64,000 nucleotides of DNA from a virus. A program made the translations under genes and the position numbers. Where the stretch lies: positions 74,924-138,923 of IMG/VR virus record IMGVR_UViG_3300036772_000425; one strand, written 5' to 3'. A model generated the notes under the pieces. That model did no database searches, was not told the origin of the DNA, and worked only from the letters and a program-made list of their open reading frames with translations. Shown piece after piece: positions 7,117 to 45,602 of this stretch (its first letter is position 1; each line of letters begins with the position of its first letter).

Positions 7117-8382
7117 TCAGGTCTCCTTTGAGGTGGAAGTCACCAACATGCAATCGATGATTACATCGAGTGACTTGTCGGACAGCTTCCCAGCATCGCA
7201 GGTCTGCCGAATCCAGGTCCGGACGTTGGGGCTTCGACCCTCCCAGATGTTGAAGTAGGGGGCACACCAGGTGCCGCTGGCGAGAACCAGCTCCGCGAAC
7301 CGCTTCCGGGAACCCTGAGCCTCCTTCCGAGCAGATTCGAACACCTCGTCAGCGTGGCGACAGTACTCCCGGTACTCGTCCTGCATCTTCAGGATGCGAT
7401 CTCCCACGTCCTTCGGGATCAGGGGCACGATGTCGTCAGCCTTCTCCAGGATCACAGCCATCAGAGCGTTGCGAGGCGAGGCCGTGACGCTGTCCTTCGA
7501 CCGATGCGCCAGAACGTACGCCTCGCTCTTCAGCTTGATCCTGCGGAAGTGAGAATCGCACACTACAGCACCTTCCAACTCGCTGGGACTGATCGAGTTG
7601 ACGAACGCCGCGAGCACAACAGCGCTGGAGATGGGCCATGATCGCGGACGACGAACGTGCTCCATTCGGATCGAATCGAGCGGTACCTCCTTGCCGCTCG
7701 GCAGGTGCCGCGCTGCGAGCAGGTAGGCACGAGGTTCAGGGTATGAAACCACGATCTGATTGTGGGGTGAGACAAGCTCGAAGACATAGGTCATCTCCTT
7801 GCTGAGATGCACCACCTTGTCCGGACCGTCGACAGACCAGTCCACCGGCTTCCCCGACAGTTCCTCACGGGTCATGATGAGAGCCTTGAGGAAGAGCTGC
7901 GAGAAGGTGGAATCTCCGATCACCAGGTCGTTCGGGTGGATGGGCAGGTCAGCCTCCGACACCGACCTGGTAGCACTGCACCAGGTGCCCTTCGTAGGAT
8001 CCCAGTAGACGATGATGCAGGTGCCGTCCACCTTCTCGTACACCCGGAGTTCAGGATCAGCCCAATCGACCTTCGCGGCTGAAAAATCGCCGTGGTTGTA
8101 GAACCTGCACATGGGCCAAGCCAGGACCTCGGTCCGACCGACAGGCACCAACTTCCAACCATCACGATCGGTGTGCCACACCGCAGAATCAGGTTCGGGA
8201 CGAATGACCAACCCACGACACTGCTCTGACAGCGGATCCCCGCTGCGTGACATGATCTGATCGTAGTTGCAGGAAAACTTGCTGAAATCAGAACTGGGTC
8301 GGGCGCACACTCCGTGCGCATCCTCGAGCTCCTTGAATGAGTGGGTTCGCAGGAATTCCTGGACAAGGAGGTTGGGTGCCAT
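7117..8382 (-). CDS. RNA ligase, Rnl1-like nucleotidyltransferase
   Basis: 421 aa; motif I EKVDGT near residue 118, as in T4 Rnl1-type ligases; sits in the tRNA/RNA-repair gene context. Confidence 0.55.
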   Translation of the reverse strand: MAPNLLVQEFLRTHSFKELEDAHGVCARPSSDFSKFSCNYDQIMSRSGDPLSEQCRGLVIRPEPDSAVWHTDRDGWKLVPVGRTEVLAWPMCRFYNHGDFSAAKVDWADPELRVYEKVDGTCIIVYWDPTKGTWCSATRSVSEADLPIHPNDLVIGDSTFSQLFLKALIMTREELSGKPVDWSVDGPDKVVHLSKEMTYVFELVSPHNQIVVSYPEPRAYLLAARHLPSGKEVPLDSIRMEHVRRPRSWPISSAVVLAAFVNSISPSELEGAVVCDSHFRRIKLKSEAYVLAHRSKDSVTASPRNALMAVILEKADDIVPLIPKDVGDRILKMQDEYREYCRHADEVFESARKEAQGSRKRFAELVLASGTWCAPYFNIWEGRSPNVRTWIRQTCDAGKLSDKSLDVIIDCMLVTSTSKET

Positions 8383-13669: not shown

Positions 13670-14065
13670 TCAGAGCAGGCGGAGCGTGCTGGTGATCGGA
13701 TCGATCTCCTCGGCGAGGCACGGTCCGAACGCGGCGCACGTTAGGGTTGGGACTCCGTGGAATTCAGTCCTCCCTGCGTCGACGATCGGGTAGACCTCCA
13801 CGTCTGCAAGTTTGGCACGGAGGATCAGCTGCTGCAGTTCCTCCTCGCTGTCGCACCCAGCAACGATCTTCGTGAAGGATCCGGAGAAGAGCCAGGTTGC
13901 CTCCTCGCGTGACAACTTCACCATGAGCTCATCGTCCCGATCCGCCTCATTGTTGTCGACCAGGAATTTCATGGCAGCGTGGGCGACCTGCGAGGCCAGC
14001 TTTCCCTTCCTCATGTTCAGGTCGCGACGGACGACGATAACCTGCTTGACATCGCTCATGATCAT
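13670..14065 (-). CDS. peptidyl-tRNA hydrolase, PTH2 family
   Basis: Trimmed to ATG at 14065 (MIMSDVKQVIVVRRDLNMRKGKLASQVAHAA...TLRLL); GGAGGT RBS 5 nt upstream; the longer ORF would overlap two tRNAs. Confidence 0.75.
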   Translation of the reverse strand: MIMSDVKQVIVVRRDLNMRKGKLASQVAHAAMKFLVDNNEADRDDELMVKLSREEATWLFSGSFTKIVAGCDSEEELQQLILRAKLADVEVYPIVDAGRTEFHGVPTLTCAAFGPCLAEEIDPITSTLRLL

Positions 14066-14085
14066 TACCTCCAAGGGCGATGCTG

Positions 14086-16208: not shown

Positions 16209-16285
16209 CACCCCCGGCAGGGTTCGAACCTGCATGTGTCCGGTTACGGTTCCCACTGCTTAGAAGGCAGAGCCGATACGGAGGT
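16209..16285 (-). ncRNA. tRNA-like element (Arg-type acceptor and T-arm; anticodon arm not foldable)
   Basis: acceptor acccccg/cggaggt and T-arm gcagg-gttcgaa-cctgc nearly identical to tRNA-Arg(ACG) at 17688, but no canonical D or anticodon arm. Confidence 0.35.
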
Positions 16286-16424
16286 GTGACCTGGGTGTGA
16301 GCCTGCTTTCACCTTCCTGGTTCCGCCCAAGGCGGGTGCAACCCACCGCAGGGATTTTCACCCTTATGACAGTTACTCACCGTCAGGGACGCCCACCTCA
16401 CGATGGCTCCGTCCTGACGACCCG

Positions 16425-16586: not shown

Positions 16587-16720
16587 AAGCGCACTTTCAC
16601 CTACGGTCCCGGTGGGATTTGCACCCACACCCTCGAAATCATACCTCGATGTGCTCCGTTACACCACGGAACAACTCTTGGCCGGCTGTCCGGCAGTTAC
16701 TCATGTGAGCTGAAGGTACA

Positions 16721-17770: not shown

Positions 17771-18169
17771 TCACCAACCGAAACGGTCCTGGCGCTCGCG
17801 ATCATTCTGCATGATCAGGGACAGGTTGCCGGCTTCTTCTGCTTCTCGCTGGCGTGAGTTCTCCTCACGCGTGCGACGTTCGTGTTCGTCAGACCGCGCG
17901 AGCTCCTTTGCGTAATTCTCTTGCTGGCGAGCCCGAGCGAGCCCAGCGGCGTAACCACGATTGTACGCAACCTCTTCGATCTCTGCCCTGGTCTCTGCCT
18001 CCGTCTTTGTCCGGACAGGTTCGACGGTTTCATCGATGATTTTTTGCCATCGGTCCACGGAGGGTTCGTCCACGTGGCGTTCGTTCCTCATCTGGATGTT
18101 TTCAAGAGCTGTTTTGATCTTTTGTTTCTTTGGAGCGGTCATCAGCATCACCAGTTCCCATCGTACCAT
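17771..18169 (-). CDS. hypothetical coiled-coil/charged protein (start uncertain)
   Basis: 132-aa ORF, R/E-rich. Confidence 0.3.
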   Translation of the reverse strand: MVRWELVMLMTAPKKQKIKTALENIQMRNERHVDEPSVDRWQKIIDETVEPVRTKTEAETRAEIEEVAYNRGYAAGLARARQQENYAKELARSDEHERRTREENSRQREAEEAGNLSLIMQNDRERQDRFGW

Positions 18170-18817
18170 CGGGACAGGCGAAACTTCATGCCCGTCCGAT
18201 GGTCAGTTACCAGGTCGTCCTGTGTCCTGTACGTTCGAACCTTGTCACCGCGTTGACCTGAACCCACCTGGGTCTTCCGTTCTGATTCACGAAGCCTGTT
18301 CATCCTTTCGGATTCAACGTCATGGATCCTGGCTGCAAGGACCTTCAGGGCGGTGGCCCTGTTCTGGTGCTGCGACCTTTCGTTGTCTATCCTGACCTGG
18401 ATTCCTGTGGGGCGATGAACAGCGATCACGCACGACTCTGTCTTGTTCCTGTTCTGCCCGCCCGACCCGGTGCCGCGTGCTGTCGTCACGACAACATCCT
18501 TCTGATCCAGGTGAAAACCAGCAGACATCTCAGGATCCATCACCGCGACGGTGACCGTCGATGTTTGGACCCTACCACGCTTCTCGTTGGGAGGGACCCG
18601 CTGCCATCGGTGACCGCCTGCCTCGTTAGCGTACAGTGACCTGCATCCGGGCCCCTCTACCGTGAAAACGACCTGACCGGGCCTTTGATCGATCAGCTGG
18701 ACGTCAAAGACCCCTCTGGGCCGCAACGTTGCAGTACACGCGAAGCTGATCCTTGACAAGGAGCTTCGCATCGTCGCCGCCCTCGGCGGCCCGGATCTCG
18801 ATGATGATCGTTTCCAT
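18148..18817 (-). CDS. class-I release factor RF2-like (domains 2-4, GGQ motif) with +1 programmed frameshift at CUU UGA C
   Basis: Frame 0 from ATG 18817 (METIIIEIRAAEGGDDAKLL...AAQRGL) stops at UGA 18706-18704 within cagAGGGGuCUUUGAC; the +1 frame continues DVQLIDQRPGQV...SGGQNRNKTESCVIAVHRPTGIQV; the joined product aligns contiguously with RF2 domain 2. Confidence 0.65.
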
Positions 18818-20586: not shown

Positions 20587-20939
20587 GTGGAAATGAGGCG
20601 GAGATCTAAGCGGAGTTCTGTCGAGGACGATCATTCATCTTGGGTGCACGTCACCGTGCACCTCTAGCAACAACCCGCATGCTCGGGCGAACAACCCTCG
20701 AGCGCATGCTGTTTGTCTTGCTCCGGGAGGGGCCCCATACCGTCCGCATTGCTGCGTCCGTGGTGGGCTCTTACCCCACCGTTTCAACCTTGCCTGATCC
20801 CTTGCGGGCCATCGGCGGTCTGTTTTCTGTTGAGCCTTCCGACACCTTACGGTGCCCAGTGATTACCTGGTACCCTGTTCTAGGGAGCTCCGACTTTCCT
20901 CTACGCTCTGCAGCGCAGCGATCGTCTTTCCCTGCCTCG

Positions 20940-21030: not shown

Positions 21031-21531
21031 TCAATCGTGATCACGTCGTGATTGAGAAATCTTAGCTCTCGATTCTTCTGTGTGATGTCGACCTTTGAAT
21101 CCATGAGTGGGTGTCAGAGCATGACAGTTTGGACACAAGTACCGAAGGTTGGTAGGATCAGGATTTGAACTGTTACCATCGATGTGATCGATTTCAAGCT
21201 CAAGAGGTTTTCCATTCCACTCACCGGTGTTTCCGCACTTCACACATCGATATTCACGATCAAGTTCTTGAAGAACTCGACGCAATATCGTCGTACGAAC
21301 TCCGCGTTTAATCGTATGGATGTTTTGGGCGGTGATCTTTTCGGGTCCCCCACGGTGACGCTCACCAGAATTTGCTGAACGCCCCAAGAAGTGAGTTACA
21401 TCGAGCTGAAGTGCTTCAATTTCACGCTTGACAGCATGCCAAGCAGAACCAGAAGTCATTCCCATACGTAGAACAACTTCACGATAACTCTTTGAGGAAG
21501 CCACAACAACGATCAATTTCTCTCGATCCAT
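21031..21531 (-). CDS. HNH homing endonuclease
   Basis: Trimmed to ATG 21531 (MDREKL...); CVKCG...ELEIDHIDGNSSNPDPTNLRYLCPNCH. Confidence 0.65.
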   Translation of the reverse strand: MDREKLIVVVASSKSYREVVLRMGMTSGSAWHAVKREIEALQLDVTHFLGRSANSGERHRGGPEKITAQNIHTIKRGVRTTILRRVLQELDREYRCVKCGNTGEWNGKPLELEIDHIDGNSSNPDPTNLRYLCPNCHALTPTHGFKGRHHTEESRAKISQSRRDHD

Positions 21532-21573
21532 GAGGCAATGGTACTGTTCTTTTAGTACTTGTATTTGCCTAAG

Positions 21574-21659
21574 TGCCATCGAGGGGATTCGAACCCCTAC
21601 ACCCATTACGGGTACAACGTTCTCAACGTTGCGCGCCTGCCTAATTTCGCCACGATGGC
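21574..21659 (-). tRNA. tRNA-Leu(GAG), class II
   Basis: 86 nt; acceptor gccatcg/cgatggc; T-arm agggg-attcgaa-cccct; loop uugagaa. Confidence 0.7.
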
Positions 21660-21664
21660 ATGGG

Positions 21665-21737
21665 TACCCCCAACGGGATTCGAACCCGTATACCCAGAGT
21701 GAAGGTCTGGTGTCCTGAACCGTTAGACGATGGGGGC
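21665..21737 (-). tRNA. tRNA-Glu(UUC) (tentative; C33 in my fold)
   Basis: acceptor with G1-U72; T-arm acggg-attcgaa-cccgt; loop ccuucac. Confidence 0.6.
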
Positions 21738-22304: not shown

Positions 22305-22375
22305 AGCAGACGACCGGAATCGAACCGGTGTGTTCAGGATGGCGTCCTGATGCCTAACCATTCGGCCACGCCTGC
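22305..22375 (-). tRNA. tRNA (anticodon GCC read, Gly?; C33 in my fold)
   Basis: acceptor 7 bp with one G-U; T-arm accgg-aatcgaa-ccggt; loop acgccau. Confidence 0.5.
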
Positions 22376-22486: not shown

Positions 22487-22558
22487 AGCTGGCGGCGGGA
22501 ATCGAACCCGCGTGATCCTCCGTACCGAGGAGGTGCGTGACCACTACGCTACACCAGC
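22487..22558 (-). tRNA. tRNA-Thr(GGU) (tentative)
   Basis: acceptor with G-U; T-arm gcggg-aatcgaa-cccgc; anticodon stem ccucc/ggagg; loop ucgguac. Confidence 0.6.
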
Positions 22559-23074: not shown

Positions 23075-23148
23075 TCGGGAAGGAGGGACTCGAACCCCCG
23101 ATCTCGTGTTTCCAGAACACGCGCGATACCAAACTTCGCTACTTCCCG
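23075..23148 (-). tRNA. tRNA-Pro(UGG) (tentative; loop register ambiguous)
   Basis: acceptor cgggaag/cttcccg; T-arm gaggg-actcgaa-ccccc; anticodon hairpin cgtgt-ttccaga-acacg. Confidence 0.55.
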
Positions 23149-23896: not shown

Positions 23897-23968
23897 TCAG
23901 GAAGGTGGGACTCGAACCCACGACCTCAGCGATCCCGTCGCCGCCGTCTGCCACTGACTTACTTCCTG
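23897..23968 (-). tRNA. tRNA-Pro(GGG) (tentative)
   Basis: acceptor caggaag/cttcctg; T-arm gtggg-actcgaa-cccac; loop acgggau. Confidence 0.6.
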
Positions 23969-23969
23969 G

Positions 23970-24044
23970 TCGAGTGAGCAGGATTCGAACCTGCGATCCC
24001 CTGGTTCCGGACCAGGTGCGATAACCAAACTTCGCCATCACTCG
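23970..24044 (-). tRNA. tRNA (anticodon CGG read; 5-bp/7-nt versus 6-bp/5-nt loop ambiguous)
   Basis: acceptor cgagtga/tcactcg; T-arm gcagg-attcgaa-cctgc; hairpin cctgg-ttccgga-ccagg. Confidence 0.5.
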
Positions 24045-25053: not shown

Positions 25054-25125
25054 TTGGCACCGAGGGACTCGAACCCTCGACATCCGCGGTGTGGGCGCGG
25101 CGCTCTGCCTCTGAGCTAGGTGCCA
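25054..25125 (-). tRNA. tRNA-Val(CAC)-like (C33 in my fold)
   Basis: acceptor tggcacc/ggtgcca; T-arm gaggg-actcgaa-ccctc; anticodon stem ccgcg/cgcgg; loop cccacac. Confidence 0.55.
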
Positions 25126-41491: not shown

Positions 41492-41505
41492 GTGTCAGCG
41501 AATGG

Positions 41506-41578
41506 CACCTCCAACGGGATTCGAACCCGTATCTTCCGCTAGACAGGCGGATGTCCTAAGCCGTTGGACGATGAAGGT
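41506..41578 (-). tRNA. tRNA-Asp(GUC) (tentative; U37)
   Basis: T-arm acggg-attcgaa-cccgt; anticodon stem tccgc/gcgga; loop cugucua; D-arm gtcc/ggac. Confidence 0.6.
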
Positions 41579-42270: not shown

Positions 42271-42347
42271 TGGAGCTGGAGGGAGTCGAACCCTCGGTCG
42301 TGTGAGGTCCATTGTCGGCTTTCTCAAACGCCCTGCCTTTCAGCCCC
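42271..42347 (-). ncRNA. tRNA-like element with Ala-type G3:U70 acceptor but no foldable anticodon arm
   Basis: acceptor ggggctg/cagctcc; T-arm gaggg-agtcgaa-ccctc; exhaustive 5-7-5 hairpin scan of the interior found none. Confidence 0.35.
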
Positions 42348-43850: not shown

Positions 43851-43857
43851 ATGGTGG

Positions 43858-43979
43858 AGCGTGGTGAAGGATTCGAACCTTCATTTCCGGCTGCGATTGC
43901 CGGCGTTATTTCCCATTCAGGCTTCCGGAGCGAGGTGCGCACCTCGATTTCCCTGGTCGTGAACGTCTACTAACCACGC
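43858..43979 (-). ncRNA. elongated tRNA-like element (~122 nt)
   Basis: perfect acceptor gcgtggt/accacgc 115 nt apart; canonical T-arm gaagg-attcgaa-ccttc; interior hairpins ccggc-tgcgatt-gccgg and cgaggtg-cg-cacctcg. Confidence 0.4.
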
Positions 43980-43983
43980 ACGG

Positions 43984-44062
43984 TGTGCGTAACAGGAATT
44001 GAACCTGTGACCTCCGGCACCCGGTTAACCAGGGCGGTGCTCTTTCTCTGAGCTATACGCAC
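43984..44062 (-). ncRNA. tRNA-like element with tetraloop in place of an anticodon loop
   Basis: acceptor gtgcgta/tacgcac 7/7; T-arm acagg-aattgaa-cctgt; D-arm gctc-tttctct-gagc; anticodon position is cccgg-ttaa-ccagg. Confidence 0.4.
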
Positions 44063-44064
44063 GG

Positions 44065-44136
44065 TGGGGGAGGGTGGACTTGAACCACCGACCTTCGTCC
44101 TCAACGGACGACGCTCTTTCTCTGAGCTACTCCCCC
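44065..44136 (-). ncRNA. tRNA-like element, copy A of a duplicated pair (anticodon loop cguugag with G33, or a 5-nt loop)
   Basis: acceptor gggggag/ctccccc; T-arm ggtgg-acttgaa-ccacc; D-arm gctc-tttctct-gagc; body identical to the element at 45379. Confidence 0.45.
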
Positions 44137-44240
44137 ATGTTTTCGCTGTTCACCTGCCGCTTCCGGACTTTCACCGGACCTTACGAATTCGAAGTTCGCC
44201 GTGCGTGTACCACACTGCCGCGCTTGGGTTACTGGGACGG

Positions 44241-44315
44241 TGGGAGAGGAAGCGATCGCATCTTCGACCTCCAAGATTTCAAATCCTGGCGCTCTGCTAC
44301 CTGAGCTACTCTCCC
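44241..44315 (-). ncRNA. tRNA-like element with non-canonical T-loop and 6-bp/7-nt anticodon arm reading UGA
   Basis: acceptor gggagag/ctctccc 7/7; D-arm gctc/gagc; anticodon hairpin ccagga-tttgaaa-tcttgg; T-loop gatcgca. Confidence 0.35.
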
Positions 44316-44439
44316 GTTCCATGACGGTACCAGGTTGTGCGCCCGAGTACAATCAGAATCGAAGCATTTTTCACCTTCACGGTTCTGTACCGTCTGGCTC
44401 ACCCTTTGCCCTCACGGGCATGTAGGCAGAAATTGAATT

Positions 44440-44500
44440 CCTGCTGGAGCCCATGCTGGGATTCGAACCCAGTCCTGAATGAATGGTTACTGTTCTGCCA
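44440..44500 (-). ncRNA. tRNA fragment-like (T-arm ctggg-attcgaa-cccag without a matching 5' acceptor)
   Basis: canonical T-arm, but no complementary acceptor strand found within 100 nt. Confidence 0.2.
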
Positions 44501-44505
44501 CGAAG

Positions 44506-44581
44506 CGGGGGAGGATGGGCTTGAACCACCGTCTTCGGACCTATTGCGGTCCGACGCTGAAGTCTACTGAGCTACTCCCCC
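44506..44581 (-). ncRNA. tRNA-like element with 8-nt (or 6-nt) anticodon loop
   Basis: acceptor gggggag/ctccccc; T-arm gatgg-gcttgaa-ccacc; anticodon hairpin cggac-ctattgcg-gtccg. Confidence 0.4.
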
Positions 44582-44643
44582 AAAACAGCTGCGGTTCCCT
44601 GAAGGAACACGAACGGAACGATTTCCCGCTCTCACAACCACTG

Positions 44644-44716
44644 CGGATCCGGTGGGACTCGAACCCACGGCAATCAGGGTAAGGGCCTGACGTTCTAGCC
44701 GCTGAACTACGGATCC
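44644..44716 (-). tRNA. tRNA-Lys(CUU) (tentative; C33 in my fold)
   Basis: acceptor ggatccg/cggatcc 7/7; T-arm gtggg-actcgaa-cccac; anticodon stem tcagg/cctga; loop cccuuac. Confidence 0.6.
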
Positions 44717-44758
44717 ATGCGAACGAGAGCTACATTGAAAGCGTAGGACCACGTTCGG

Positions 44759-44829
44759 CTGTAACGGAAGGAATCGAACCTTCTTCCAAGGGTCTAACAG
44801 GCCCGTGCTCGCCATTGAGCTTCGTTACA
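44759..44829 (-). ncRNA. tRNA-like element, anticodon arm not foldable
   Basis: acceptor tgtaacg/cgttaca 7/7; T-arm gaagg-aatcgaa-ccttc; D-arm gctc/gagc; interior lacks any 5-7-5 hairpin. Confidence 0.4.
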
Positions 44830-45418
44830 ATGCTCTCCAGTCATTTCTGACTGAAATGTCCAGACCCAAGTCTTGGAGATCAGTGCCAGACAGGACGATC
44901 AGTTTCTTTGTGAATTGTGACCACTTTGCTTCATCCTTGAGCGTCTTCCAACCCTTCACTTCGACATAACAGTCTAGTTCAGGCAGGTAGAAATCTGGGA
45001 CGTAGCGTCTTGGTTTGTCAAACTCATACGTGAAACTCTGTTTGTTCCTGACCCAGGGAACCTGATGCTGATCGAACCAGATGGCTAGCTTCAGTTCCCA
45101 CGTACCATCGAATGATTCGTTTCGATACGAATATCGCCTACTACGTGCAAACGAATTGTGCCATGTGCCCGCTTCAACACGTTGGCTGATCGTCCTTGAC
45201 AATTTTGCTCTGGTTTCAGGAGACAAGAACTTTCCAGTCATGCGAAACGAAACTTTTTTGTTGATTTCGTCACGTTTTGGGTTATTCTTGCAGCGAACTG
45301 CGTGTCCTCCCAGACTTTGCCCTTTCTGGAATTCACGATCACAGAATTGACATGTAAACACATGTGATTCTACATCGGCGCGGGAGGGTGGACTTGAACC
45401 ACCGACCTTCGTCCTCAA
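44825..45418 (-). CDS. putative homing endonuclease: C2H2 zinc finger + PD-(D/E)XK nuclease motif (start uncertain; annotated ATG lies inside a tRNA-like element)
   Basis: 197 aa; FTCQFCDREFQKGQSLGGHAVRC; C-terminal RYVPDFYLPELDCYVEVKGWK; AT-richer than the flanks. Confidence 0.5.
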   Translation of the reverse strand: MRTKVGGSSPPSRADVESHVFTCQFCDREFQKGQSLGGHAVRCKNNPKRDEINKKVSFRMTGKFLSPETRAKLSRTISQRVEAGTWHNSFARSRRYSYRNESFDGTWELKLAIWFDQHQVPWVRNKQSFTYEFDKPRRYVPDFYLPELDCYVEVKGWKTLKDEAKWSQFTKKLIVLSGTDLQDLGLDISVRNDWRAL

Positions 45419-45450
45419 CGGACGACGCTCTTTCTCTGAGCTACTCCCGC
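45379..45450 (-). ncRNA. tRNA-like element, copy B of the duplicated pair
   Basis: acceptor gcgggag/ctcccgc 7/7; body identical to 44065..44136, including the D-arm and aberrant anticodon arm. Confidence 0.45.
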
Positions 45451-45456
45451 ATCTGC

Positions 45457-45525
45457 TCCGGCGCAGGGATTCGAACCCCGATGAGCTGGTAAACAGCCAG
45501 CCGTCCTCCCGTTGAACGACACCAG
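45457..45525 (-). ncRNA. tRNA-Asn(GUU)-like element lacking a pairing acceptor stem
   Basis: T-arm caggg-attcgaa-ccccg; anticodon hairpin gctgg-taaacag-ccagc gives loop cuguuua; no complementary 5' strand found. Confidence 0.3.
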
Positions 45526-45531
45526 AATGTG

Positions 45532-45602
45532 CTCCCAGAGCTGGCCTTGCACCAGCACCTCCGTGCGTTCTAGCACGGCGCTCTGCCTTGAGCTACCCGG
45601 GA
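45532..45602 (-). ncRNA. tRNA-like element with non-canonical T-loop and 6/8-nt anticodon loop
   Basis: acceptor 7 bp including two G-U; T-arm-like gctgg-ccttgca-ccagc; hairpin ccgtgc-gttcta-gcacgg; D-arm gctc-tgcctt-gagc. Confidence 0.35.

What the first reader, a model, noticed from the sequence alone, without database searches (positions are those of the whole stretch)
43858..45602. Cluster of aberrant tRNA-like elements with intact acceptor, T and D arms but destroyed, shortened or lengthened anticodon loops
At least nine elements have 7/7 acceptor complementarity and canonical T and D arms, yet their anticodon position is a tetraloop, a 5-, 6- or 8-nt loop, absent, or a non-TTCGA T-loop. 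They are found at 43984, 44065, 44241, 44506, 44759, 45379, 45457 and 45532, plus 16209, 41329 and 42271 elsewhere. Retention of compensated acceptor stems argues against simple decay. Candidate roles are decoys for tRNA-targeting host nucleases, substrates that titrate anticodon nucleases, tRNA-like regulatory RNAs, or frameshift-capable tRNAs.
Basis: seen in the sequence. Interest (0 to 1): 0.8.

Follow-up and report, generated by a model that had tools for sequence, protein, structure and literature searches.

The report
Anticodon-less tRNA look-alikes in phage
A phage-like genome carries, among about 50 ordinary tRNA genes, a conserved set of tRNA-shaped genes that keep every part of a tRNA except a working anticodon loop; they belong to a widespread phage family that seems undescribed, so they are probably tRNA mimics and not dead genes.

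Summary
All the elements lie on the minus strand, inside a tRNA island of 56 ARAGORN calls plus an RNase P RNA.

- **Aberrant (six of the eight listed in the cluster):** 43984, 44065, 44241, 44506, 45379 and 45532 have perfect acceptor and T stems. Their anticodon arms are 17-24 nt hairpins with 3-8 nt loops, lacking U33 or of the wrong length. Four D loops lack G18G19 and two T loops are non-canonical.
- **Mis-registered (two):** 44759 and 45457 have ordinary 7-nt GUU loops.
- **Conservation:** five syntenic relatives keep the same slots. The body is conserved and the stems covary (97% paired against 73% in shuffles). The anticodon-arm sequence and loop length differ between every pair of orthologues.
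- **Wider family:** the same D arm marks 84 distinct sequences in IMG/VR. Acceptor and T stems are intact in 80 of them, CCA is encoded in 63 of those 80, anticodon arms run 12-39 nt, and none has a canonical loop. About a quarter of the occurrences sit beside a divergent PTH2-like peptidyl-tRNA hydrolase gene.

Simple decay is refuted. Conserved frameshift or suppressor decoding is not supported. The best reading is non-decoding tRNA mimics, but their mechanism is inferred only.

The parts
45532..45602 (-). tRNA-like element 'A', directly after tRNA-Tyr. Acceptor 7/7 including 2 G.U pairs. Anticodon arm CCGUG-CUAGAACG-CACGG (8-nt loop, or 6 nt with the C-G closed). T loop UGCAAGG.
   Evidence: ARAGORN '???(agaa)'. 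Rfam tRNA 40.2 bits. Positional orthologues are L001 1803-1874 (loop AUGAUA) and L009 2269-2338 (loop CUUUAC).
45456..45526 (-). tRNA-Asn(GUU) variant with a normal 7-nt loop CUGUUUA that has U37 in place of a purine.
   Evidence: CUGUUU is conserved in L001 1880-1951 and L011 3449-3524, with different, compensated stems.
45379..45450 (-). Anticodon-less family member (acceptor GCGGGAG, D loop AGAGAAA, arm UCGUC-CGUUGAG-GACGA). It is a duplicate of 44065-44136.
   Evidence: Rfam 54.7 bits. The 77-nt repeat is 96% identical, and its only differences are the discriminator and the compensated pair 2:71. It matches the D-arm pattern family.
44825..45370 (-). Endonuclease-like ORF (C2H2 zinc finger plus a phage endonuclease family), inserted between the duplicate element and tRNA-Asn. 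It is absent at this place in L001.
   Evidence: Pfam zf-C2H2_6. PHROG 15137 'endonuclease', E 6e-18. Translation. Synteny.
44759..44829 (-). tRNA-Asn(GUU) with a canonical loop CUGUUAG but a 3-bp anticodon stem flanked by two mismatches, and A8. It is probably a decoding tRNA.
   Evidence: The orthologues in relatives carry CUGUUAA plus a long variable arm.
44506..44581 (-). Slot-1 element. Acceptor GGGGGAG. D loop of 11 nt without GG. Arm UCGGAC-CGCAAUAG-GUCCGA.
   Evidence: ARAGORN '???(caat)'. Rfam 46.2 bits. Orthologues are L001 2354, L009 2542, L010 2729 and L012 11445, with the body 73-85% identical and the arms unrelated.
44241..44315 (-). Slot-2 element. Acceptor GGGAGAG. Arm of 19 nt (CCAGGA-UUUGAAA-UCUUGG). 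T loop UGCGAUC.
   Evidence: Rfam 42.1 bits. In every relative the slot-2 orthologue also has a T loop that is not UUCRA: UGCAAUU, UGGAAGU, UUAAAGG and UGCAAGU.
44065..44136 (-). Anticodon-less family member. Acceptor GGGGGAG, D loop AGAGAAA, loop CGUUGAG with G33, or 6 bp plus GUUGA.
   Evidence: Rfam 56.3 bits. The same loop CGUUGAG sits on a different stem in L010 2953-3025.
43984..44062 (-). Slot-3 element. Acceptor GUGCGUA, D loop AGAGAAA. The arm is a 24-nt extended hairpin ending in UUAA.
   Evidence: Rfam 52.7 bits with a 12-nt insertion in the loop. The flanks 'GAGC A CCG...CCGG AGGUC' are shared with L001 2718-2787.
43857..43978 (-). A 122-nt tRNA-like RNA. Acceptor GCGUGGU/ACCACGC, T arm GAAGG-UUCGAAU-CCUUC, encoded CCA, hairpin CCGGC-AAUCGCA-GCCGG, and about 65 structured nt where the D arm should be.
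   Evidence: RNAfold. No Rfam match at E<=1. A comparable D-loop insertion occurs in L009 2873-2979.
42271..42347 (-). A 77-nt element resembling a tmRNA tRNA-like domain (GGGGCUG...CAGCUCCA, G3.U70), with no mRNA-like domain.
   Evidence: Rfam tmRNA 39.8 bits, below the gathering score of 47. The orthologue L009 4609-4685 has a compensated 6:67 pair and a conserved core GAGAAAGCCGACAAUGGA.
16604..16673 (-). tRNA-like gene missed by ARAGORN. Loop GUAUGAU (anticodon AUG), T loop UGCAAAU, U1.C72 mismatch.
   Evidence: Rfam tRNA 41.2 bits.
13670..14080 (-). PTH2-type peptidyl-tRNA hydrolase gene inside the tRNA island, between two tRNA-Val genes.
   Evidence: Pfam PF01981, 97-98 bits.
20591..20938 (-). 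Bacterial class A RNase P RNA inside the tRNA island. This is the likely 5'-processing activity for the array.
   Evidence: Rfam RF00010, 255 bits, E 5e-82.

Best explanation
The elements are expressed, non-decoding tRNA mimics.

**Probable path (inferred).**
1. They are transcribed together with the neighbouring tRNAs and cut out by RNase P, which this genome encodes itself, and by 3' processing.
2. They fold into a tRNA-like L shape and end in CCA, which is encoded in most family members and would have to be added in this window.
3. Their anticodon arm is only a stabilising hairpin, so they cannot read codons.

**Most likely role (inferred).** They act in trans on proteins that recognise tRNAs by shape or by the acceptor end. 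They could be decoys or competitors in the conflict over the tRNA pool, or partners or substrates of acceptor-end enzymes such as the PTH2-like hydrolase encoded next to them in other phages.

**What is shown.** The structure, its conservation and covariation, the hypervariable arm, the family's spread among phages, and its gene neighbourhood.

**What is inferred.** Expression, processing, CCA status in this genome, and the trans-acting role.
For: - **tRNA-likeness.** Rfam scores of 40-56 bits for all eight elements.
- **Scaffold under selection.** Acceptor, D and T stems are 97.4% paired against 73% in shuffles and about 50% in slid controls, and 12 of 16 pairs changed on both sides. RNAalifold recovers a cloverleaf with 16 of 20 covarying pairs. 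U8, A9, G10, C11, U12 and A14 are invariant, and AGAGC and AGGUC are nearly so.
- **Recent compensated change.** The 44065/45379 duplicates differ by a compensated pair 2:71 change plus the discriminator.
- **Synteny.** Six genomes whose flanking kinase is only 58-63% identical in protein keep the three slots between Lys(CUU) and Lys(UUU).
- **Body conservation.** Identity is 78-94% in the GGGGGAG group, against 58-92% for decoding orthologues.
- **Anticodon arms.** They are always hairpins: median z -4.1 against shuffles. Their sequence is unrelated between orthologues, their length is 16-24 nt, and their loops are 3-8 nt.
- **Family in IMG/VR.** 84 distinct sequences; 80 have at most one mismatch in 12 pairs; arms are 12-39 nt; 0 of 80 are canonical; CCA is encoded in 63 of 80; T-loop position 56 is free, as expected if G19 is missing. 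As a control, chance matches to the same D-arm pattern in cellular genomes have 2-5 mismatches.
- **Context.** 81 of 100 occurrences have a same-strand tRNA within 1 kb, none has an opposite-strand tRNA there, and 19 are isolated.
- **PTH2-like neighbour.** A PTH2-like gene (profile against PDB PTH2, E 5e-8) lies in 26 of the fetched IMG/VR loci that carry the element, mostly within about 100 nt on the same strand. In the reverse direction, all 14 loci fetched through that protein have a same-strand tRNA or tRNA-like, abutting the gene in 12 and 280-410 nt downstream in two.
- **Signs of tRNA conflict in the window.** Eight otherwise normal tRNAs carry C33, two carry a pyrimidine at 37, and the island also holds an Rnl1-type RNA ligase, a PTH2, an RF-domain ORF and endonucleases.
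Against: - No expression, processing or charging data exist.
- In this window PTH2 lies about 30 kb from the cluster and is flanked by ordinary tRNA-Val genes, so the neighbourhood argument comes from other phage lineages.
- Acceptor stems are diverse across the family. That argues against one specific trans partner and fits a role purely as RNase P/Z processing signals.
- Anticodon-specific nucleases should not recognise these loops, which limits the decoy idea to factors that read the body or the 3' end.
- Detection by ARAGORN, by the covariance model and by the D-arm pattern favours well-folded copies. Decayed copies do exist, at 44450-44520 and L010 3173-3280.
- The family's D arm was the search key, so its invariance in the IMG/VR set is by construction.
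Confidence: 0.4

Rival explanations
1. They are cis-acting processing or punctuation elements. Only the RNase P/RNase Z substrate shape is selected, so that the long tRNA-island transcript and adjacent mRNAs (for example the PTH2-like mRNA in other phages) are cut correctly. The released RNA would have no function of its own.
For: - They are always on the same strand as their neighbours and often abut tRNAs or ORFs by 0-100 nt.
- Acceptor sequences are diverse and the arm is arbitrary.
- The genome encodes its own RNase P RNA.
- An encoded 3' CCA also improves recognition by bacterial RNase P (established knowledge).
Against: - Inside dense arrays the ordinary tRNAs already supply cleavage sites every 75-300 nt, yet 3-6 extra elements are kept in syntenic slots.
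- RNase P needs only the acceptor/T minihelix and the elbow, yet the D stem, the core nucleotides, the AGGUC variable region and a stable anticodon hairpin are all kept.
- The 7-mer GGGGGAG recurs as the acceptor strand in phages ranging from 37% G+C (L064) to 58-60% (L060, L063, the window). A purely structural constraint does not predict that.
- The association is specifically with PTH2-like genes, not with arbitrary ORFs.
Confidence: 0.22
2. They are tRNA pseudogenes. Duplicates in a fast-evolving array lost the anticodon loop and are on their way to decay. The apparent conservation would come from recent duplication, gene conversion or endonuclease-driven transfer.
For: - The array is dynamic. 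It contains a 96% identical duplicate next to an endonuclease gene, a different GIY-YIG endonuclease in L011, and truncated copies.
- SegB-type endonucleases are known to amplify tRNA segments (PMC13096335).
Against: - Stems are 97% paired with abundant double substitutions.
- Bodies are as conserved as those of decoding tRNAs, while the anticodon arm alone is replaced and still forms a hairpin. Uniform neutral decay or recent transfer would not give that pattern.
- 84 distinct members occur in unrelated phages, 75 of them with 12 of 12 pairs intact.
Confidence: 0.08
3. They are specialised decoders: nonsense suppressors, quadruplet (+1) or other frameshifting tRNAs, or nuclease-resistant isoacceptors whose odd loops still read codons.
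For: - Some loops are 8 nt (44506, 45532).
- By my reading of the loops listed, about half of 24 contain UUA, UCA or CUA.
- CGUUGAG is conserved on different stems in the window and in L010.
- CUGUUUA (Asn, U37) is conserved in three genomes.
- C33 variants of decoding tRNAs are common in the window. Point-mutated nuclease-insensitive phage tRNAs are a published idea (PMC10264068).
Against: - Loop length and sequence differ between orthologues in every slot, across 3-8 nt.
- Family-wide, loops of 4-5 nt are the most common, arms reach 39 nt, and 0 of 80 have a 5+7+5 arm with U33 and R37.
- Long ORFs with recognisable domains read through under the standard code, so I infer no recoding that would need suppressors.
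- No CUA-anticodon tRNA occurs in the window.
- This reading plausibly applies only to 45456 and 44759, and perhaps to 44065/45379.
Confidence: 0.1
4. The fast turnover of the anticodon arm is driven at the DNA level. The arm region would be the cleavage target of the homing endonucleases that live in these arrays, and variants would be selected because they escape cutting while keeping a foldable RNA.
For: - Endonuclease genes of at least three kinds sit inside the arrays.
- One abuts the duplicated element.
- T4 SegB prefers to cleave within tRNA genes (cited in PMC8421152 and PMC13096335).
Against: - No cleavage site is known for these enzymes.
- Most family members have no endonuclease gene nearby; the endonuclease-like clusters cover only about 9 loci each.
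- The idea does not explain why non-decoding copies are kept at all.
Confidence: 0.08

Closest known systems
Ordinary phage-encoded tRNAs in large arrays (Rfam RF00005; for example the arrays of T4, T5 and XacN1, PMC5852040)
   Same: - Same cloverleaf, size, strand and spacing.
- Co-located with tRNA-processing and repair genes.
- They pass the Rfam tRNA gathering score.
- The body is closest to bacterial tRNA-Ile: the best cultured-phage match is annotated tRNA-Ile.
   Different: - No 7-nt anticodon loop with U33 and R37.
- The arm has variable length.
- The D loop lacks G18G19 and T-loop position 56 is free.
Nuclease-insensitive phage tRNAs with anticodon-loop point mutations (van den Berg et al. 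2023, PMC10264068; T5 tRNA-Lys against PARIS, PMC11464382)
   Same: - The part of the tRNA that changes is the anticodon stem-loop, in phage tRNA arrays.
- The window also has decoding tRNAs with C33, G33 or U37 that fit this concept directly.
   Different: Those tRNAs keep a 7-nt loop and their anticodon, and they still decode. Here the loop is shortened, lengthened or replaced by a hairpin, so decoding is lost.
Bacterial tRNA mimics: the tmRNA tRNA-like domain and YrlA (Y-RNA-like)
   Same: - Acceptor/T-arm module with a CCA end and no anticodon.
- Non-standard D region.
- The window holds a separate tmRNA-domain-like mini RNA at 42271-42347.
   Different: - The family keeps a full D stem and an anticodon-arm hairpin.
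- It has no G3.U70, no mRNA-like domain and no Ro-binding stem.
- Rfam scores for YrlA and tmRNA are far below threshold.
Viral and cellular tRNA-like non-coding RNAs made by tRNA processing enzymes: the gammaherpesvirus MHV68 vtRNAs and MALAT1 mascRNA (recalled from memory, not tested here)
   Same: Cloverleaf-like RNAs cut by RNase P/Z, CCA-ended, and not used for decoding.
   Different: - Those are eukaryotic systems with no sequence relation.
- The mascRNA Rfam model gives only sub-threshold hits here.
Phage T4 stable RNAs 'species 1 and 2' (RNA C and D) in the T4 tRNA cluster (recalled from memory, not tested here)
   Same: Non-tRNA stable RNAs encoded within a phage tRNA cluster, with tRNA-like termini and unknown function. 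In size they are most like the 122-nt element at 43857-43978.
   Different: No sequence comparison was made. The T4 RNAs are longer than the 70-79-nt family members.
Frameshift-suppressor tRNAs with 8- or 9-nt anticodon loops (sufD-type; established knowledge)
   Same: Two window elements have 8-nt loops by ARAGORN.
   Different: The loop length is not conserved in orthologues, and the closing C-G pair can reduce both loops to 6 nt.

Membership tests
Canonical decoding tRNA | Cloverleaf with a 7-bp acceptor stem, a D stem, a 5-bp T stem, and a score above the Rfam RF00005 gathering threshold | tested here: met
   40.2-56.3 bits against a gathering score of 29 for all eight elements. Stems are shown.
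Canonical decoding tRNA | 5-bp anticodon stem with a 7-nt loop carrying U33 and a purine at 37 | tested here: not met
   - Not met by 43984, 44065, 44506, 45379 and 45532. 44241 has a 7-nt loop with U33 and A37, but on a 6-bp stem.
- 44759 meets the loop criterion (7 nt, U33, A37), but its stem has two mismatches.
- 45456 has a 7-nt loop with U33 but U at position 37.
Canonical decoding tRNA | Elbow formed by G18G19 of the D loop with psi55-C56 of the T loop | tested here: not met
   - No GG in the D loops of 43984, 44065, 44506 and 45379.
- T loops UGCGAUC (44241) and UGCAAGG (45532).
- Family-wide, position 56 is C in 51, U in 19, A in 8 and G in 2.
tRNA pseudogene (decaying copy) | Mismatches accumulate in all stems, and no conservation beyond neutral expectation | tested here: not met
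   - 97.4% paired, with no shuffle of 500 as high.
- A compensated change between 96% identical duplicates.
- Body identity of 78-94% across genomes.
Frameshift-suppressor (quadruplet-decoding) tRNA | Expanded 8-9-nt loop conserved among orthologues, with U33 and an in-register 4-base anticodon | tested here: not met
   - The orthologues of 44506 have 6-nt loops (AUUUAA, GUCAAA, GUUAAA) or an irregular arm.
- The orthologues of 45532 have 6-nt loops.
Nonsense-suppressor tRNA | 7-nt loop with the anticodon CUA, UUA or UCA in register after U33 | tested here: not met
   ARAGORN finds no such call among the 56 window genes. Stop-complementary triplets do occur in some odd loops, but out of register and in loops of the wrong length.
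Nuclease-insensitive phage tRNA (anticodon-loop point mutants; PMC10264068) | Decoding tRNA with anticodon and 7-nt loop retained, and substitutions at loop positions flanking the anticodon relative to the norm | tested here: inconclusive
   - It fits 45456 (U37), 44644 Lys (C33) and seven other C33 tRNAs elsewhere in the window, and possibly 44065/45379 (G33).
- It does not fit the length variants.
- The host tRNAs and host nucleases are unknown.
tmRNA (for 42271-42347 only) | tRNA-like domain with G3.U70, plus an mRNA-like domain with a tag ORF and pseudoknots | tested here: not met
   Only the two ends of RF00023 match (39.8 bits, below the gathering score of 47), with about 45 nt between them. 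ARAGORN calls no tmRNA.
Anticodon-less phage tRNA-like family defined here (D arm GUAGCUCAGNGAAAGAGC) | That D arm, a 7-bp acceptor stem, a 5-bp T stem, a variable region ending in GGUC, and an anticodon arm that is a hairpin of non-canonical length or loop | tested here: met
   - 44065 and 45379 match the pattern exactly.
- 43984 differs only at position 7 (A instead of G).
- 44506, 44241 and 45532 share the scaffold but have other D loops (44506 without GG); they are joined to the family by synteny and by covariance model R1 at 57-71 bits.
PTH2-linked module (seen in other phages) | Element within about 100 nt of a PTH2-like gene on the same strand | tested here: not met
   The window's PTH2 (13670-14080) is a canonical PF01981 member flanked by tRNA-Val genes, about 30 kb from the cluster.

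The most novel reading that the evidence does not exclude
Large phages encode a dedicated class of anticodon-less, CCA-ended tRNA mimics. These would work at the acceptor end together with a divergent PTH2-like hydrolase and, in some lineages, with a second tRNA-like family carrying the conserved 9-nt loop AGUAAUGAC or with CUA-anticodon tRNAs. The module could be codon-independent, either rescuing or terminating stalled translation or neutralising host toxins that attack tRNA 3' ends. The window's cluster would be an expanded, array-embedded version of it.
Probability: 0.25. Interest if true: 0.85.

Novelty: new variant of a known kind. Interest (0 to 1): 0.7.

Why it matters
Phage tRNA genes are now read mainly as replacements for tRNAs destroyed by host defences. 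A conserved, widespread set of phage RNAs that look like tRNAs but cannot decode does not fit that picture or the codon-supply picture. Annotation pipelines would call these genes odd tRNAs, 'undetermined' or pseudogenes, so they are currently invisible.

If they are mimics that engage tRNA-binding proteins such as defence nucleases, 3'-end-modifying toxins or PTH2-like hydrolases, they would be an RNA-based counter-defence or translation-control layer. The sequence signature is simple, which makes the question directly testable in any cultured phage that carries it.

Tried and rejected
- **BLAST against cultured phages.** Searching the 2.5-kb region against 50,697 phage records gave only single-tRNA-length matches. 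A family member as query found only a Synechococcus phage tRNA-Ile at 76% identity and T-arm fragments in Thermus phages. No cultured close relative was identified.
- **Other Rfam families.** At permissive thresholds, YrlA, RAGATH-21, mascRNA, Plastid-ycf2 and permuted tmRNA all stayed far below their gathering scores. I rejected them.
- **Intron reading of the long arms.** ARAGORN with introns allowed only proposed a 2-nt 'intron' in 43984. Arms shorter than 17 nt cannot be explained by introns at all. Rejected.
- **Promoters and terminators.** The scan of 40.9-47.4 kb found no more than shuffles give.
- **The 9-nt-loop motif.** TAATGAC is absent from the window.
- **Reverse search with the full PTH2-like alignment.** It failed because the alignment was too divergent. 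A three-sequence subgroup worked.
- **Stop-anticodon triplets in the odd loops.** I counted them by eye (about 12 of 24). They were neither in register nor tested statistically, so I give them no weight.
- **Literature.** Searches found no description of loop-length-variable or anticodon-less tRNA-like families in phages. The cluster M mycobacteriophage paper that I recalled as mentioning odd anticodon loops was not available.

Full report
**Setting**

The window is phage-like. It encodes a T4 Rnl1-type RNA ligase, an ATP-dependent DNA ligase, a dNMP kinase, HNH and other endonucleases, a PTH2 hydrolase and an RF-1-domain protein. Its closest relatives are an IMG/VR viral contig and metagenome contigs.

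ARAGORN finds 56 tRNA genes. All are on the minus strand, in two blocks at 10.5-25.5 kb and 41-46 kb. Rfam adds a class A RNase P RNA at 20591-20938, at 255 bits.

**Checking the observation**

All eight elements listed inside 43858-45602 pass the Rfam tRNA threshold, at 40-56 bits. Their acceptor stems are 7/7.

Six are truly aberrant:
- 43984 has a 24-nt anticodon arm, an extended hairpin capped by UUAA.
- 44065 and its copy 45379 have CGUUGAG with G33. Because C32 and G38 can pair, this is effectively a 6-bp stem with a 5-nt loop.
- 44506 has CGCAAUAG and 45532 has CUAGAACG. Both are 8 nt, or 6 nt if the closing C-G pair forms.
- 44241 has a 19-nt arm and the T loop UGCGAUC. 45532 has the T loop UGCAAGG.

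44759 (CUGUUAG) and 45456 (CUGUUUA) have 7-nt GUU loops. They are the only Asn genes in the window. The first has a weak stem and the second has U37.

The D loops of 43984, 44065, 44506 and 45379 lack G18G19.

Outside the cluster:
- 42271-42347 is a 77-nt look-alike of the tmRNA tRNA-like domain.
- 16209 is weak.
- 41329 has no Rfam support.

**Relatives show selection, not decay**

A dNMP-kinase gene next to the array led to five syntenic relatives with 58-63% protein identity: L001, L009, L010, L011 and L012.

In all six genomes the order is Tyr, Asn variants, Lys(CUU), three odd slots, Lys(UUU), Met. An odd element directly follows Tyr in three of them: the window, L001 and L009. The three slots are:
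- Slot 1 has the acceptor GGGGGAG or a close variant.
- Slot 2 has a purine-rich acceptor and a T loop that is never UUCRA: UGCGAUC, UGCAAUU, UGGAAGU, UUAAAGG or UGCAAGU.
- Slot 3 has a variable acceptor, and its T loop is UUCAAYU in most genomes.

I aligned 22 such elements (A2).
- RNAalifold recovers a cloverleaf in which 16 of 20 pairs have compensatory changes.
- For the acceptor, D and T stems, 97.4% of cells are paired, against 73% in shuffles (0 of 500 as high) and about 50% in slid controls.
- With the anticodon arm excluded, body identity within the GGGGGAG group is 78-94%. Decoding tRNAs of the same genomes are 58-92% identical to their window orthologues.

The anticodon arm, by contrast, shares no sequence between orthologues. 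It ranges from 16 to 24 nt with loops of 3-8 nt, yet it nearly always forms a stable hairpin: median z is -4.1 against shuffles.

Within the window, the 77-nt duplicates 44065 and 45379 are 96% identical. They differ only at the discriminator and at both sides of pair 2:71, which changed from G-C to C-G. That is a compensated change after a recent duplication. The duplicate sits beside an endonuclease-like ORF that L001 lacks at that place. L011 carries a GIY-YIG endonuclease in the same array. Endonuclease-driven amplification of tRNA segments has been demonstrated for T4-type SegB (PMC13096335).

**A larger family**

The D arm GUAGCUCAGNGAAAGAGC, shared by 44065 and 45379 and by 43984 apart from position 7, occurs in 96 stretches of IMG/VR. 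By their listed lengths, more than twenty of those contigs are 200-480 kb.

I parsed these into 84 distinct sequences:
- 80 have at most one mismatch in the 12 acceptor and T pairs, and 75 have none.
- The variable region ends in AGGUC in 52 of the 80.
- T-loop position 56 is free (C 51, U 19, A 8, G 2), as expected if its partner G19 is gone.
- CCA is encoded in 63 of 80.
- The anticodon arm is 12-39 nt, often a hairpin with a 4-5-nt loop or a branched extension.
- None of the 80 has a 5+7+5 arm with U33 and R37.

The same pattern gives 36 matches in 596 Gb of cellular genomes. About half of those fold, and they lie mostly on MAG contigs, several with many tRNAs in the fetched 8 kb. The rest have 2-5 mismatches, which serves as a chance control.

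The family is therefore real, old and mainly viral, and its defining feature is the lack of an anticodon loop. My literature searches found no description of it.

**Context of the family**

Of 100 occurrences, 81 have a same-strand tRNA within 1 kb, none has an opposite-strand tRNA there, and 19 are isolated.

I clustered the neighbouring ORFs. The top cluster is a small protein present in 20 loci, always on the same strand.
- A 12-sequence profile of it (22-51% identity to the first sequence) matches solved PTH2 peptidyl-tRNA hydrolases over its full length: E 5e-8, 1e-6 and 4e-6.
- Pfam PTH2 is only sub-threshold for single sequences.
- The profile detects the protein in 27 loci: 26 IMG/VR loci that carry the element, plus L015.

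In those loci the gene is flanked by the element, by a second odd tRNA-like with a conserved 9-nt loop AGUAAUGAC, or by CUA-anticodon tRNAs.

In the reverse direction, all 14 loci fetched through a PTH2-like subgroup have a same-strand tRNA or tRNA-like of one of these three kinds. It abuts the gene in 12 of them and lies 280-410 nt downstream in two.

In the window itself the PTH2 gene (13670-14080) is a canonical Pfam member flanked by ordinary tRNA-Val genes, 30 kb from the cluster. The neighbourhood link is therefore family-level evidence, not evidence from this locus.

**Interpretation**

Shown:
- The elements are tRNA-shaped.
- They are under purifying selection for the whole scaffold and for a hairpin in place of the anticodon arm.
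- They are conserved in syntenic slots.
- They are part of a widespread phage family.

Inferred:
- They are co-transcribed with the array. There is no internal promoter or terminator signal above chance.
- They are excised by RNase P and end in CCA.

Simple decay is refuted.

Conserved special decoding is not supported for the length variants, because neither loop length nor loop sequence is conserved between orthologues. It remains plausible for 45456, for 44759 and perhaps for 44065/45379, whose loop CGUUGAG recurs on a different stem in L010.

The window also has eight otherwise normal tRNAs with C33 and two with a pyrimidine at position 37. That fits the published idea that phage tRNAs change their anticodon loops to escape host nucleases (PMC10264068).

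My best reading is that the anticodon-less elements are non-decoding mimics acting in trans on proteins that recognise the tRNA body or the acceptor end. They could be decoys or competitors, or partners of acceptor-end enzymes such as PTH2-like hydrolases. I give this a confidence of about 0.4.

The main rival is a purely cis role as RNase P/Z processing signals. It explains the diverse acceptors and the tight spacing. It does not explain the following:
- The retention of the D stem, the core and the arm hairpin.
- The recurrence of the same GGGGGAG acceptor in phages of very different base composition.
- The specific PTH2-like neighbourhood.

**Novelty and score**

This is a new variant of a known kind, tRNA-derived mimics. 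It is not a new category. It would surprise specialists in phage tRNA biology, and it is directly testable through a simple sequence signature. Interest 0.7.

Noticed in passing
window 20591-20938 (-): A complete bacterial class A RNase P RNA (255 bits, E 5e-82) is encoded inside the tRNA island of a phage-like genome, between tRNA-Arg(UCG) and tRNA-Leu(CAG).
   Followed up: no
window 42271-42347 (-); L009 4609-4685 (+): A 77-nt mini RNA matches only the two ends of the tmRNA model (G3.U70, tmRNA-type T arm, no mRNA-like domain). It is conserved in a relative with a compensated 6:67 pair and a conserved internal core GAGAAAGCCGACAAUGGA.
   Followed up: partly
window 44644-44716, 25054-25125, 23970-24044, 23897-23968, 23075-23148, 22487-22558, 22305-22375, 21665-21737 (-): Eight otherwise normal decoding tRNAs (Lys CUU, Val CAC, Pro CGG/GGG/UGG, Thr GGU, Gly GCC, Glu UUC) carry C33 instead of the near-universal U33. 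For Val CAC, Pro CGG, Pro UGG and Gly GCC a second gene with the same anticodon and U33 lies elsewhere in the window. Asp(GUC) at 41503-41578 and Asn at 45456-45526 have U37.
   Followed up: partly
L001 1981-2064, L010 2296-2381, L011 3556-3639, L012 11126-11209: Four relatives share an 84-86-nt tRNA with a canonical Asn anticodon loop (CUGUUAA), a long stem-loop variable arm (class II-like) and discriminator G. That combination is not expected for bacterial tRNA-Asn. The window's positional counterpart (44759-44829) lacks the long arm.
   Followed up: no
window 43857-43978 (-); L009 2873-2979 (+): These are oversized tRNA-likes. The window element (122 nt) has acceptor, T arm, encoded CCA and about 65 structured nt where the D arm should be. 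The L009 element (107 nt, acceptor GGGGGAG) has a roughly 35-nt insertion with its own hairpin in the D loop and a CUGUAAA loop.
   Followed up: partly
L071 2421-2498 and 2580-2655; L096 8950-9028; L108 493-571; L101 1534-1611; L155 1365-1445; L161 1291-1369: A second odd tRNA-like family in other phages, called 'tRNA-Ile(aat)' by ARAGORN, has a conserved 9-nt loop (A/C)(G/C)UAAUGAC. It sits next to PTH2-like genes and to the anticodon-less elements. The motif TAATGAC is absent from the window.
   Followed up: partly
L162, L164-L167, L068, L072, L076, L141, L146: PTH2-like genes in phage contigs are also repeatedly flanked by tRNAs with a canonical loop and the amber-suppressor-type anticodon CUA.
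   Followed up: no
window 44825-45370 (-), 21031-21606 (-); L011 4161-4682 (+): At least three different endonuclease types sit inside these tRNA arrays: C2H2 zinc finger plus PHROG 15137, HNH plus NUMOD3, and GIY-YIG. The first is next to a freshly duplicated tRNA-like gene.
   Followed up: partly
window 18148-18771 (-), 13670-14080 (-), 7117-8382 (-): Translation-rescue and repair genes lie in or beside the tRNA island: a 207-aa protein with a partial PCRF domain plus an RF-1 (GGQ) domain, a canonical PTH2, and a T4 Rnl1-type RNA ligase.
   Followed up: no
window 16604-16673 (-): A tRNA-like gene is found by Rfam (41 bits) but not by ARAGORN. Its loop is GUAUGAU (anticodon AUG, with A34). 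Its T loop UGCAAAU is of the same U-G-C-A-A type as 45532 and the slot-2 elements. It has a U1.C72 mismatch.
   Followed up: no
window 44450-44520 (-): A T arm CUGGG-UUCGAAU-CCCAG is followed by CAUGGGC-U-CCA. The only possible 5' acceptor partner (GCCCAU) lies inside the T arm of the upstream element 44506-44581. This is either a truncated copy or an overlapping gene.
   Followed up: no
window 16209-16286 (-): This is the only UCU (Arg AGA) anticodon-like hairpin in the window (CUGC-CUUCUAA-GCAG). It sits in a weak tRNA-like context: 7/7 acceptor, a good T arm, no proper D arm and a long variable region. It scores 24 bits against the tRNA-Sec model only.
   Followed up: no
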